Shown piece by piece: positions 2,558 to 9,088 of a stretch of DNA of 64,000 nt. The stretch's first letter is position 1. Each line of letters begins with the position of its first letter. The notes beneath the pieces are model-generated. The model searched no databases and was not told the origin of the DNA. It was given only the letters and a program-made list of their open reading frames with translations. A program made the position numbers and the translations under genes. Origin of the DNA: Amoebophrya sp. A120 (lineage: Eukaryota; Protista; Dinoflagellata); the NCBI GenBank assembly GCA_905178155.1, contig CAJINV010000002.1:1857216-1921215 (forward strand), given 5' to 3'.

Positions 2558-5500
2558 TCAATGAAACTGTCTCATGAGGTCTTCGCGTTTTGTGTCGTAC
2601 TCGAATTGCGTAATGGCCTCCGCATCCAGAAGTTGCTTAAGCGCCAGGATTTTTCGCGACACATCCTCCGGATTAGAAGTTGTCGTGGTGCCATAATTTT
2701 CATTTTGCTGTCCCATCATAGGATAACCACCAGCACCGCCCGGCATTTGCACCACCACCATCGGCGCGCCACCGCCGCTTTTGACGTACTTTTCCTTGGC
2801 CTCGCGAATCATCTTTGCCGCGCCGTTTGGGTCGGAGCACCACACCCGACAGGAGGGATTCAGCAGGGCTGAGCGTATGACCTGCAAAAGCATCGTATCC
2901 GATACGATATGCATTTTATACTAGTGCGATACGGTATCGCACTAGCATAAAATGCATTACAAGTTAGCTTAGCATGAGAAATGGATTTTGTCATGCTGAT
3001 CTAGTACCTTGGGACGGAGAAGCGGTAAAAATAAATGCAATTACTACGAGTACGATACTTTTGCACAGGATAGAGCGGTTGTCTCGGCTATTTGCCTGCA
3101 GCGGGTCGGCGATCGCGCAGCCGAGTTGGACGTGTAGTTTGACAGCGGTGGTTCCGCCAGAGCAGACAAACATCCCCGACTCCGCCTGGTCAATGGTGAT
3201 CGAGTTGATTTGCGACAACTCACAGTAGGCCCGGTCGCTGCCGGATTGATACAGTCTCCCCATGTTCACAGTCTGCATCTTGTAGAAATTCTTCTCCCCC
3301 AGCGCCCACACCTTGCCCTCCATGGACGCTTTGGCACTCTTCTGCGACATACACATGCACCCGATGCACAACACCATCGGTAGGAGAGAAAGGAGAATTG
3401 AAAGGAGAATTTTTGGAAGGAAATCTGTACCTTCCCCACTGGCTTTGCCGCCTGAGCCTGTGACAAAAAACACGGTAACCGATATGGAGATGAGACCAAT
3501 CACGACACAGATGACGTGGCTGCAACACAGGCCCTTCCGCACCGACTCCTTGTTTATGAACTGCAAAAGTATCGCACTCGTATAAATGCATTACAAATTT
3601 CCTCAGCATGAGAAATAAAATTTGTCATGCGGCTTTACTTTAAGAAAAAAATTTGTTGTTGTTGTTGTTGTTGTTGAGTAAGATCCTATGGGAGGACCCT
3701 CACAACTACCTCTTCCAGTCGGGTGACTATCGGCATGAGGAGTTGTGGTAAAGCTATTCCCCCTTTCTATCCGAAAATAAAAAGGATCGAGGAGACCAGA
3801 GCCCCATGTGCGAGAATGTGGGCGAGGACGCACACAACTAGTACACTCCCGCTATAACAGCACCTGGGAGACACAGTGACACAACTCAAATATTAAGACT
3901 CGCACGGGGGATGGTAGCTTTGTTCCCTTGGGACCAGAAGACCACTTAAGGCAACCGGATCGAGGCGGGACCGAACCCTGAAGGGGAGTGATTTACATAC
4001 ACATCCTTCAAGGGGGCACACCGAAACAACCGAGACTTCATGGTGGAGCCAGGTCCGGCGTAGTGCCAACTACCTGAAAATATACCGAAGGGGTCGAGCA
4101 ACAGAAGCAGAACCTTACCGATACCAACCGAAGTCTGATCTAATGCCCGCAACTGATCTACGGCCGAAATCTGATCTAGTTATCGCAGACGAAATCTGAT
4201 CTATTCACTATTTTCCAGCAATGCAAAAATAAAACCTGATCGAATTACAAAGATAAAAAACCAGATCCATGGCAGTCAATAGAGAATGATGATCGTAGTG
4301 CAGTGCCAACGTGATCTAAAAATTTTGATCCAAATCATGCGACCGACATGTTTGAACAACGCGACACCAACAACACAAAGACGTCGGCGGGAATATAGCT
4401 ATAAGGCCTCCCCTACGCTGGGAAACAACAGTACGCAACCGAACCCAACAAACTGGCAATAACCTCCAGGGGATCCGCCAACAGAGAAGAAGGGGAGGGG
4501 GGCAGTAATGCAGGAAAATGTAAAACCCGAACCGAAGAGATTGCTTCTTTGTTCCTTTAAAGCAATAAAGCGGAGAGAGCTGGCAAAGGAAATAGGGCGG
4601 AAATAGTAGCGAAGCAAAAACATACCATCATAACCAAACCCCGGCGAAGTGCCGGGGCCGCAATATCCATACAGGAAAAGGCCCAAGGCCGCAGGCGGTA
4701 GGCATAGGGCTAAGGCAGCAGGTAAAGGGCTGCCGACGGTAGGCACTGGGCAAAAGGCGGTAGGCATAGGGCTACAAGCATAAGGCAAAAAGCATAAGGC
4801 AAAGGGCATAAGGCAAAAGGCATAAGGCAAAAGGCATAAGGCGCAAGAAGTAAGGCATCAATAAGGCATAAGGCATAAATAAGGCATAAGGCATACAAAA
4901 GGCATAAGGCATAAAAAAGGCATAAGGCATAAATAAGGCGTAAGGCATAAATAAGGCACAAGGCATAAATAAGGCATAGGGCATAAGGCACGCATAAGGC
5001 ATAAATAAGGCATAAGGCATAAGGCAGAAGGCAGAAGGCAGAAGGCAGAAGGCAGAAGGCAGAAGGCAGAAGGCAGAAGGCAGAAGGCAGAAGGCAGAAG
5101 GCAGAAGGCAGAAGGCAGAAGGCAGAAGGCAGAAGGCAGAAGGCAGAAGGCAGAAGGCAGAAGGCAGAAGGCAGAAGGCAGAAGGCATAAATAAAAAGGC
5201 ATAAGGCACAGCTAAGGCATAAGGCAGAGCTAAGGCATAAGGCAAAACAAAGGCATAAGGCATAGCTGAGGCATGAGGCATGGCCAAGGCTGCTAAAAGC
5301 GGTAGGCAAAAGGCCAAAGGACAGCAGGAAAAAAGCCAAAAGGCTGAAGGAAAGCGCATAGGGCCAGCGGTCGTAGGACGTCAGAAGTCCAAAGCAGGCA
5401 GGGCGGCAGGCATAAGGCCAAAGTCGGAAGGCGTAAGGCCAAACACGGTAGGCATAAAGCCAAAAACATTAGGCCTAAGGCCAAAAACAGTAGGCAAAAG

Positions 5501-8500: not shown

Positions 8501-9088
8501 GGAATCCAAGTCGTTGCACTTGTTCCAGGTGAAAAAATGGTAGGTGTTTCGCTTGGAATGCTGCTTATTTGGGCTCGTGCCAACAACAACGAAGACGCAC
8601 CAACCTCATGGGGGAGAGGACACAAGGGTGGGCGGGATCCGTATGCAGTCGTCTAAGAGGATTCCAACCAGTCCTGTGTTTAAAAGGACACAGAAGTCAT
8701 GACCAAAAAGTACTGGGAGGAGATCCTAATGCAAATATACAAAAAGACTCCATGAGGGGAGTCGGAACCAAACCTCTAGGGCGGTAAGATTCCAGAGAGA
8801 CACATACCACGCACGATGCCAACCACTGCATACTCTCTTTCAATCTCTCGGGCAAGCCCCCGACGATAAGGGGAGAGAGATCAGGACCTTGGTTACCCGG
8901 CTTCGCCCCCGGGGGGAAAAAAATTTGTAATGCAAGACTTGCATTTATACGAGTACGATACTTTTGCACAGGATATTGTTTTCGTCCGAAACGCGCCAGA
9001 TGGCGACAATTTTGTCGTTGCAGTCCCTGGCGTAGGCTTCACAGGTCTCCCGGTCCTCCTCCCTGGCGTTCGAAAGGAGCTGCGTCAT
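2558..9088 (-). CDS. Two-TM membrane protein with a C-terminal SHOCT-like domain; 3 exons (about 9088-8976, 3549-3073, 2870-2558)
   Basis: Removing 3555-8975 and 2876-3072 (each plus one direct-repeat copy) joins ...[15 protein letters not shown]... to the C-terminus [27 protein letters not shown] (SHOCT-like); two hydrophobic helices. Confidence 0.8.
2876..3072. mobile_element. Introner family A (long variant)
   Basis: TATGACCTGCAAAAGCATCGTA ... TACGATACTTTTGCACAGGATA; direct repeat GAGCG. Confidence 0.9.
4700..5595. repeat. Heptamer satellite: 23 perfect AAGGCAG units at 5021-5181 inside degenerate AAGGCAT/AGGCA units
   Basis: Read directly; explains the spurious LLPSAFC ORFs. Confidence 0.95.
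5940..6310 (+). repeat. About 80-bp tandem repeat, 5 copies, core CCGAAATGCGAAACGCGAAAA
   Basis: Cores at about 5954, 6041, 6119, 6197, 6286. Confidence 0.9.
8100..8372 (-). repeat. Inverted copies (about 4) of the same core (TTTTCGCGTTTCGCATTTCGG)
   Basis: At about 8104, 8180 (degenerate), 8262, 8354; reverse complement of the 5940-6310 core. Confidence 0.85.

What the first reader, a model, noticed from the sequence alone, without database searches (positions are those of the whole stretch)
3555..8980. 5.26-kb non-coding retroposon-like element nested inside a 150-bp introner
Seen: a family A introner is split at its internal A/T tract by 5259 bp flanked by a perfect 13-bp duplication (GAAAAAAATTTGT, 3644-3656 and 8916-8928). 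The insert ends on the minus strand in an (AAC)n tail that runs into the TSD. The host exons still join in frame and both TIRs and the TTGTT repeat are intact. Established: a long TSD plus a 3' microsatellite tail indicates target-primed reverse transcription by non-LTR elements such as the RTE, L2 and CR1 clades. Inference: an unusually large non-autonomous retroposon that may use introners as multicopy safe-harbour targets removed from the mRNA. It would also mean introner excision tolerates a roughly 35-fold length increase.
Basis: partly seen in the sequence, partly recalled or inferred. Interest (0 to 1): 0.88.

Follow-up and report, generated by a model that had tools for sequence, protein, structure and literature searches.

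The report
Transposons nested inside a hairpin intron
Two non-coding mobile elements, one inside the other, have stretched a 149-base hairpin-bounded intron of a parasitic dinoflagellate to 5.4 kb, and a likely RNA data set still shows the gene joined exactly, which suggests that this unexplained splicing system reads only the intron's ends.

Summary
In detail: a 149-bp TIR introner of the Amoebophrya A120 type is split by 5259 bp between exact 13-bp duplications, and the (CAA)n tail runs in phase into the duplication. The insert is not one 5.26-kb retroposon. It is a ~2.5-kb non-coding, satellite-bearing retroposon, single-copy where DNA contigs cover it, that carries a separate multi-copy 2728-bp element (5854-8581). 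That inner element has GG...CC ends and long imperfect inverted arms and sits between (CAA)3 flanks here, in a full copy on L001, and at other loci seen in RNA contigs. It looks Mutator-like and (CAA)n-specific. A contig of a probable RNA run joins the host exons exactly across the 5426-nt non-GT-AG intron. That run is a different sample from the DNA run, so it is not shown that those cells carry the insert. The 3' 1 kb of the insert and both outer junctions have no contig support here, possibly because of a filter. Introner targeting is untested and not needed: 41-60% of non-coding priming sites in the window already lie in repeats. Multi-kb members of short A120 introner families appear in a published table.

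The parts
3550..3554 (.). 5-bp direct repeat TTGTT of the introner (left copy)
3555..3656 (-). introner family A, part 1 (3' part in mRNA sense); TIR arm 3562-3590; includes the TSD copy 3644-3656
3644..3656 (.). 13-bp target-site duplication, tail side
3657..3676 (-). (CAA)n 3' tail of the outer retroposon, in phase with the last 4 nt of the TSD
3657..5853 (-). outer retroposon, 3' part (non-coding). 3685-4680 has no contig cover in X1; 5560-5880 lies on an exact contig at single-copy depth
4128..4178 (.). 18-bp tandem repeat (2.8 copies) in the outer element
4693..5523 (.). 7/18/21-bp satellite (VNTR; AGGCATA/AGGCAGA units) in the outer element
5846..5853 (.). 8-bp AACAACAA flank of the inner element (putative TSD in a fixed CAACAACAAC target), left
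5854..8581 (.). inner 2728-bp non-coding, multi-copy, foldback/Mutator-like element: GG...CC ends, 21-nt terminal inverted repeat (19 of 21), long diverged inverted arms (about 5944-6600 against 7734-8391) with 78-bp sub-repeats
8582..8589 (.). 8-bp AACAACAA flank of the inner element, right
8590..8915 (-). outer retroposon, 5' part; 8561-8790 exact at single-copy depth; a diverged paralog is seen
8916..8928 (.). 13-bp target-site duplication, 5' side
8916..8975 (-). introner family A, part 2 (5' part in mRNA sense); TIR arm 8940-8968
8976..8980 (.). 5-bp direct repeat TTGTT (right copy)
8981..9088 (-). host gene, coding exon 1 (ATG at 9088)
3073..3554 (-). host gene, coding exon 2
2876..3072 (-). 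second family-A introner of the same gene (197 bp), also removed exactly in the RNA contig
2558..2870 (-). host gene, last coding exon (end of the 300-aa frame, inferred from its length)

Best explanation
This is a three-layer nest in which a 149-bp introner holds a ~2.5-kb non-coding tailed insert that holds a separate multi-copy 2.7-kb inverted-repeat element, likely built by one retrotransposition followed by one DNA-transposon jump, and likely still spliced out whole because its intact ends pair. Step 1 (shown): the introner sits in a coding exon with TIRs and a 5-bp direct repeat, and no GT-AG register exists. Step 2 (inferred from the TSD, tail and microhomology): a LINE protein, most likely RTE-type, nicked the introner's conserved TTTGT, whose last 4 nt paired with the (CAA)n tail of a non-autonomous RNA, and copied it in trans. 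The site was probably hit by chance, since such sites are dense in introners and insertions in exons are purged. Step 3 (inferred; composite junctions at single-copy depth, element multi-copy elsewhere): a Mutator-like non-autonomous DNA transposon with a fixed (CAA)3C target then inserted into the retroposon, which offers that otherwise rare site. Step 4 (exact join shown in a probable RNA contig; that the RNA sample carries the insert is inferred): the 29-bp TIR duplex brings the ends together regardless of what lies between, and 5426 nt are removed with one direct repeat, restoring the 300-aa protein.
For: TSD, tail and rejoined introner. Composite nature: in DNA run X1, exact contigs over 5560-5880 (depth 46.5) and 8561-8790 (51.4) match the flank depth of 43-48, while exact contigs inside 5845-8590 have depths of 122-196; RNA-type contigs from other loci leave the stretch exactly at 5845 and 8590. 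L001 holds a full inner copy (2491 of 2617 aligned columns identical, 16 of 17 indels not multiples of 3), with the same CAACAACAA / AACAACAAC flanks and no outer sequence. Splicing: X3 contig 12 (1365 nt, depth 74.5, 0 other letters) runs 2391-2870, then 3073-3555, then 30 letters equal to window 8982-9011. All 7 equivalent registers are non-GT-AG. The intron-end duplex is -47.3 kcal/mol against -27.8 for the best competitor in the insert, and there is no TIR-core decoy. Chance model: TTTGT 17.8/kb in family-A introners against 4.9/kb elsewhere; 146 of 357 TTGT and 98 of 162 TTTGT non-coding sites lie in repeats (crude masks); 10 of 11 other copies keep TTGT at or near the site. In PMC12130899 Dataset S2, A120 families of 146-148 bp have members of 4491 and 6806 bp flagged for satellites, one 234-bp family has an RTE-BovB peptide hit, and one family is Mutator with GG/CC ends and an 8-9-bp TSD.
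Against: X1 shows zero depth over 3747-4680, and no contig across 3656|3657 or 8915|8916 was displayed (tables were cut and a filter drops some records). That stretch is 0.11 of the distinct 31-mers, the same as the share missing from X1 (0.89 held), so word shares do not decide between a filter and real absence. At 8800-8834 only a diverged contig was listed. The RNA-type run is a guessed RNA run of another sample (S2, not S1) and has no depth on the unique outer parts, so it does not show that those cells carry the insert. No RT-encoding partner was found. The 3' stem-loop is not better than shuffles (z -0.67 and -1.0). The inner element's flanks are invariant, so a true TSD is not proven, and no transposase was found.
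Confidence: 0.68

Rival explanations
1. The outer retroposon family targets introners site-specifically, as Xenopus Tx1 targets Tx1d transposons, and uses them as spliced-out safe harbours.
For: It sits in an introner at a site conserved in 10 of 11 other copies. Two other small ~147-bp A120 families (4 and 6 copies) each include a multi-kb member flagged for satellites (PMC12130899 Dataset S2); their content is unknown. TE-into-TE targeting has precedent (PMC6719617 passage).
Against: Only one insertion site was seen, and only 1 of 27 elements with a 5-bp direct repeat in the window is long. The null expectation of landing in a repeat is already 34-60%. The microhomology with the tail explains the site without targeting.
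Confidence: 0.12
2. The long allele is an assembly chimera in its 3' part, or is absent from the cells whose RNA was sequenced, so length tolerance of splicing is not shown.
For: No X1 contig covers 3747-4680 and none was listed across either outer junction. The uncovered stretch equals the missing word share. RNA and DNA runs are different samples.
Against: A misjoin would not be expected to create an exact 13-bp duplication plus an in-phase tail that restores a collinear 149-bp introner. 5560-5880 and 8561-8790 are exact at single-copy depth. At least 0.022 of words are visibly lost elsewhere, which with full absence of the hole would predict 0.87 or less against 0.89 (weak). X3 matches the exons with 0 differences over 963 nt, which suggests the same strain. 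The lay tool warns that records are dropped without notice.
Confidence: 0.12
3. The outer insert was not mobilised by an RTE protein but by another TPRT system (L2/CR1, or Penelope-like) or captured during break repair, and the inner element is a recombinase- or Penelope-type element whose (CAA)3 ends belong to the element.
For: No partner LINE or transposase was identified. Penelope-like elements show microsatellite bias and inverted structures (PMC8557442 passages). The inner flanks never vary among the ends seen.
Against: The (CAA)n tail with an A-first TSD fits RTEs (PMC6007223 Table 2). There is no pLTR-type direct repeat in the insert and no ribozyme at Rfam gathering score, and the one hammerhead-like core is not kept in L001. 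The inner arms are only about 72% alike, yet the whole unit is 95% conserved in L001, so it moves as one TIR-bounded unit.
Confidence: 0.08

Closest known systems
Non-canonical introner elements (IEs) of Amoebophrya A120 (Farhat et al. 2021, PMC7789003)
   Same: TAT + 7 nt + AAA inverted-repeat ends, a short direct repeat, non-GT-AG borders, repeated family, removal from RNA; co-oriented gene block; the host paralog is labelled Amoebophrya sp. A120.
   Different: This copy is 5421 bp against an average non-canonical intron of 240 nt in A120, and it holds two nested elements. The sections read describe no nested insertions in IEs, though they give a longest intron of 35 kb of unstated type.
Long members of short A120 introner families (Gozashti et al. 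2025, PMC12130899 Dataset S2: fam60, fam122, fam25, fam6)
   Same: 146-148-bp TIR families with 4.5-6.8-kb members flagged for satellites or simple repeats; LINE peptide hits in short families.
   Different: These are automated table entries only. The word 'nested' does not occur in the main text, and no anatomy, TSD or splicing test is given in the rows read.
RTE-mobilised non-autonomous retroposons (Au-like and Bov-B-related SINEs; Nishiyama and Ohshima 2018, PMC6007223); SVA/LAVA as an architectural analogue (recalled)
   Same: Microsatellite tail, TSD whose first base matches the tail, non-coding; a central VNTR as in SVA.
   Different: About 2.5 kb, no tRNA- or Rfam-detectable head, no RTE partner shown, no significant 3' hairpin, low copy.
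Non-autonomous Mutator-like (MULE/foldback) elements, e.g. A120 fam65 in PMC12130899 Dataset S2
   Same: GG...CC termini, 8-9-bp flanking duplication, long imperfect TIRs with sub-repeats (the last feature is recalled knowledge of MULEs).
   Different: The flanks are a fixed (CAA)3 sequence at every end seen. No paper on a (CAA)n-specific DNA transposon turned up in searches.
Xenopus Tx1 non-LTR elements targeting Tx1d DNA transposons (passage in PMC6719617)
   Same: A non-LTR element inside a non-autonomous TIR element.
   Different: Tx1 is autonomous with shown site specificity. Here there is one non-coding insertion, with no evidence of specificity.

Membership tests
Amoebophrya A120-type introner element | Terminal inverted repeat starting TAT, 7 variable nt, then 3 or more A | tested here: met
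   definition in PMC7789003 section 11
Amoebophrya A120-type introner element | 3-5-nt direct repeat at the exon/intron borders | tested here: met
   TTGTT on both sides; 9 of 11 TIR pairs listed had a 5-bp repeat
Amoebophrya A120-type introner element | Repeated family across the genome | tested here: met
   11 other copies aligned in the window at 69-88% identity; summed X1 depth over 700,000 on 3533-3639
Amoebophrya A120-type introner element | Removed from RNA at non-GT-AG borders | tested here: met
   exact join in X3 contig 12; 0 of 7 registers GT-AG. Presence of the long allele in that sample is not shown
RTE-mobilised non-autonomous retroposon (outer element) | Target-site duplication | tested here: met
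   13 of 13
RTE-mobilised non-autonomous retroposon (outer element) | 3' microsatellite tail matching the first base(s) of the TSD | tested here: met
   (CAA)n tail, A-first TSD, 4 nt in phase; PMC6007223 Table 2
RTE-mobilised non-autonomous retroposon (outer element) | 3' end shared with an autonomous RTE-clade LINE | not testable with these tools
   no genome held; 3' pattern absent from viral and metagenome collections; 3' end without contig cover
RTE-mobilised non-autonomous retroposon (outer element) | Conserved 3' stem-loop | tested here: inconclusive
   a hairpin before the tail is predicted, but z = -0.67 and -1.0, and there are no homologues for covariation
RTE-mobilised non-autonomous retroposon (outer element) | Several dispersed copies | tested here: inconclusive
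   one diverged paralog of the 5' part (joint 8654-8761 and contig at 8800-8834); single-copy depth elsewhere
SINE (pol III head) | tRNA-, 5S- or 7SL-derived head | tested here: not met
   0 tRNA genes; 5 Rfam matches at E <= 10, none at gathering score
Mutator-like element (inner element) | GG...CC ends with long imperfect TIRs | tested here: met
Mutator-like element (inner element) | 8-9-bp target-site duplication | tested here: inconclusive
   AACAACAA on both sides in 2 of 2 full copies, but invariant, and no empty site was seen
Mutator-like element (inner element) | Cognate MURA-type DDE transposase with the same TIRs | not testable with these tools
   the element is non-coding; no genome held
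Tx1-type TE-targeting retroelement | Independent copies at the same site of the host transposon | not testable with these tools
   only one insertion site was available
Penelope-like element or retrozyme | Pseudo-LTR direct repeats and/or hammerhead ribozyme | tested here: not met
   no long direct repeat other than satellites; no Rfam ribozyme; the hammerhead-like core at 7210 is not conserved in L001

The most novel reading that the evidence does not exclude
Amoebophrya's U1-less, non-GT-AG introner splicing defines introns purely by terminal pairing and is length-blind. This turns tens of thousands of introners into cost-free landing pads, occupied by a dedicated guild of nested parasites: a (CAA)n-tailed retroposon family that targets the conserved introner TTTGT, and an undescribed (CAA)n-specific Mutator-like DNA transposon that hits those retroposons.
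Probability: 0.15. Interest if true: 0.8.

Novelty: new variant of a known kind. Interest (0 to 1): 0.45.

Why it matters
How Amoebophrya removes its non-canonical introns is an open question; U1 snRNA was not found (PMC7789003). A natural 36-fold longer introner that still gives exact mRNA would show that only the ends matter. It points to a genome-wide test of splicing efficiency against length and TIR integrity that needs no new experiment. The inner element is a candidate microsatellite-specific TIR DNA transposon, a target type reported almost only for non-LTR elements (PMC3706591 passage). The nesting itself, a TE inside an intron, is ordinary.

Tried and rejected
No whole genome was held and the L001 record could not be searched, so copy flanks of the outer element could not be tabulated. 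Raw RNA runs X9 and X10 gave 0 and 1 laid reads: no test. No listed holder is on record as RNA; X3, X5 and X6 are guessed RNA. The uncovered stretch 3747-4680 in X1 proves nothing by the tool's own note; a filter on the (TTG)n-bearing contig is my untested guess. The 3'-end pattern found nothing in viral or metagenome contigs. Coding: a 358-aa ATG frame in the inner element beat all 200 mononucleotide shuffles but has no Pfam hit and is broken in L001 by 10 indels, with stops in all three frames; rejected. The hammerhead-like core at 7210 was rejected. tRNA head, Rfam families and significant 5' or 3' folding were not found. Canonical GT-AG splicing cannot give the observed join. Two protein searches (86-277 aa and 278-2000 aa) returned only the paralog P0001, not the 300-aa product. 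The supplement text of PMC7789003 had 0 hits for 6 TE terms; its figure S4 on TE classes could not be seen and may bear on which LINE clades occur. Earlier scan findings: none on this genome or look-alike DNA; one search listed unrelated introner notes that I did not use.
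Full report
Observation. The 13-mer at 3644-3656 recurs exactly at 8916-8928 and cannot be extended, leaving 5259 bp between the copies. The surrounding element runs 3555-8975 between TTGTT repeats, with 29-nt arms that are 97% complementary. Removing the insert and one duplication copy gives 149 bp, collinear with the 11 other family copies aligned, at 69-88% identity. The minus-strand (CAA)n tail continues in phase for 4 nt into the duplication; 1.7% of positions would allow that. 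A TIR plus direct-repeat scan found 30 pairs in the window; of the 27 with a 5-bp repeat, only this one is long.

Organism type. The ends (TAT, seven variable bases, a run of A) match the description of Amoebophrya A120 introner elements (PMC7789003; I read the abstract, passages and sections 5, 10, 11 and 16). The only protein hit for exon 2 is labelled Amoebophrya sp. A120, at 52% identity. It also matches exon 1, so the two exons belong to one gene. No whole genome was held.

Is the host gene spliced? Eleven runs were listed and six were laid. In X3, a guessed RNA run, one 1365-nt contig (depth 74.5, no other letters) covers 2391-2870, then 3073-3555, and then continues with 30 letters identical to 8982-9011. 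Both introners are therefore removed exactly with one direct repeat, giving a 300-aa frame. The removed piece is 5426 nt, and none of 7 equivalent registers is GT-AG. DNA run X1 keeps exon-to-introner joins (contigs 2391-3042 and 3050-3578), so removal is at the RNA level. Caveat: X3 is sample S2 and X1 is S1. Identical exons suggest one strain, but nothing shows that S2 carries the insert. Raw-read runs X9 and X10 gave 0 and 1 reads and are no test.

The insert is two elements. On 5560-8952, X1 has exact contigs at single-copy depth over 5560-5880 (46.5) and 8561-8790 (51.4), against 43-48 in the flanks. Inside, exact contigs reach 122-196 and bins reach 1041. Contigs of X3, X5 and X6 from other loci leave the stretch exactly at 5845 and 8590. 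A scan with the inner terminal repeat found one locus, L001. It holds a full copy (2491 of 2617 columns identical) and no outer sequence. Both full copies read CAACAACAA, GG ... CC, AACAACAAC, with no other duplication outside. The simplest reading is an element of 2728 bp (5854-8581) with an 8-bp duplication inside a fixed CAACAACAAC target, a 10-mer that occurs nowhere in the window outside the insert. The element has a 19-of-21 terminal repeat, arms of about 650 bp at roughly 72% identity, and 11 copies of a 20-nt sub-repeat motif, 6 on one strand and 5 on the other. It is non-coding: 16 of 17 indels against L001 are not multiples of three. It works like a non-autonomous Mutator/foldback element. 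A120 has a Mutator family with GG/CC ends and an 8-9-bp TSD (PMC12130899 Dataset S2). Membership is not established, because the flanks never vary and no transposase was seen. Paper searches gave no (CAA)n-specific DNA transposon; PMC3706591 (passages) says target-specific integration is seen almost only in non-LTR elements.

The outer element is then 2523 bp: a 5' part (8590-8915), a satellite of about 830 bp and a 3' part ending in the tail. It has no Pfam hit at cut-off in 75 frames, no tRNA, no Rfam match at gathering score and no significant folding. RTEs with (CAA)n tails have A-first TSDs (PMC6007223; abstract and part 1 of 2 of the Results), as here. One A120 introner family has an RTE-BovB peptide hit. 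So RTE-type mobilisation is likely but untested. One diverged paralog of the 5' part is visible. Because the outer-inner junctions are at single-copy depth, the composite exists once, and the inner jump probably came second.

Results against. X1 has no depth on 3747-4680, and no contig across either outer junction was displayed. The tool warns that records are filtered and its tables were cut. The uncovered stretch is 0.11 of the distinct words, equal to the share X1 lacks. At least 0.022 is visibly lost elsewhere, which only weakly favours a filter. The 3' kilobase therefore rests on the assembly and on its internal logic (duplication, tail, restored introner).

Targeting. There is one site, so it cannot be tested. 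It is also not needed. Repeats are 7963 of 23521 crudely non-coding bases (34%) and hold 146 of 357 TTGT and 98 of 162 TTTGT sites. Family-A introners have 3.6 times the background TTTGT density, and 10 of 11 other copies keep TTGT at or near the hit site. Selection against exon insertions would do the rest (inference). Tx1/Tx1d is the precedent if targeting proves true (PMC6719617 passage).

Mechanism of removal (inferred). The intron ends can form a 29-bp duplex of -47.3 kcal/mol. The best competitor in the insert is -27.8, and the insert has no TIR-core decoy and no AATAAA in sense. The inner arms can also pair (-266 against a mean of -144 for 30 shuffles), which would shorten the loop. End-pairing definition, as proposed in PMC7789003, predicts indifference to length.

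Prior art. PMC7789003 gives 240 nt as the mean non-canonical intron in A120 and 35 kb as the longest intron of any type. In PMC12130899 (main-text passages; supplement file 8 parts 15 and 17 of 33 and term searches), short A120 TIR families include members of 4491, 6806, 4033 and 5627 bp flagged for satellites. Long introners are thus already in published tables, though not described as nested; searches found no paper describing this. PMC8557442 (passages) was used for the Penelope rival. The SVA analogy and general MULE features are recalled, not from calls.

Verdict. The feature is real and partly misread: a composite nest, with good but incomplete evidence that a non-canonical introner is removed exactly at 36 times its normal length, plus a candidate (CAA)n-specific TIR element. 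New variant of known kinds; interest 0.45.

Noticed in passing
L001 4992-7646: A metagenome-collection contig holds a full inner element and three TIR/5-bp-repeat introners of families also seen in the window, so a related Amoebophrya-type lineage carries the same element outside any detected introner.
   Followed up: partly
window 5845-5972 and 7612-8590: Diverged copies of the inner element's ends occur in probable RNA contigs at depths of 84-250, including a 4095-4099-nt contig that ends in the left TIR. It could be a host transcript reading into the element or an autonomous partner.
   Followed up: no
window 2876-3072: The second introner of the host gene has about 44 extra bases near one TIR (197 against about 150 bp) and is still removed exactly.
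   Followed up: partly
window 2558-9088 (-): The 300-aa host product (two hydrophobic stretches, no Pfam hit for the exon-2 frame) was not returned by two protein searches that found its paralog; gene callers may miss it because of the 5.4-kb odd intron.
   Followed up: partly
window 1476-1530 and 2366-2420: Exact 55-bp direct repeat downstream of the host gene; contig depth in X3 changes from 13 to 65-75 near 1950.
   Followed up: no
window 43506-43898: Two family-A introners lie close together in opposite orientation.
   Followed up: no
window 48921-50836 and 52970-57046: Two long TIR-like pairs with only 4-bp repeats; probably cross-pairing of neighbouring introners.
   Followed up: no
window 14714-15348 and 18964-19600: A 71%-identical direct repeat of about 690 bp, probably paralogous coding sequence.
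   Followed up: no
window 37563-39965 (-) and 31524-33863 (-): RING-finger and methyltransferase domains; 2 of 33 long frames had Pfam hits, and 24 of 33 lie on the minus strand.
   Followed up: no
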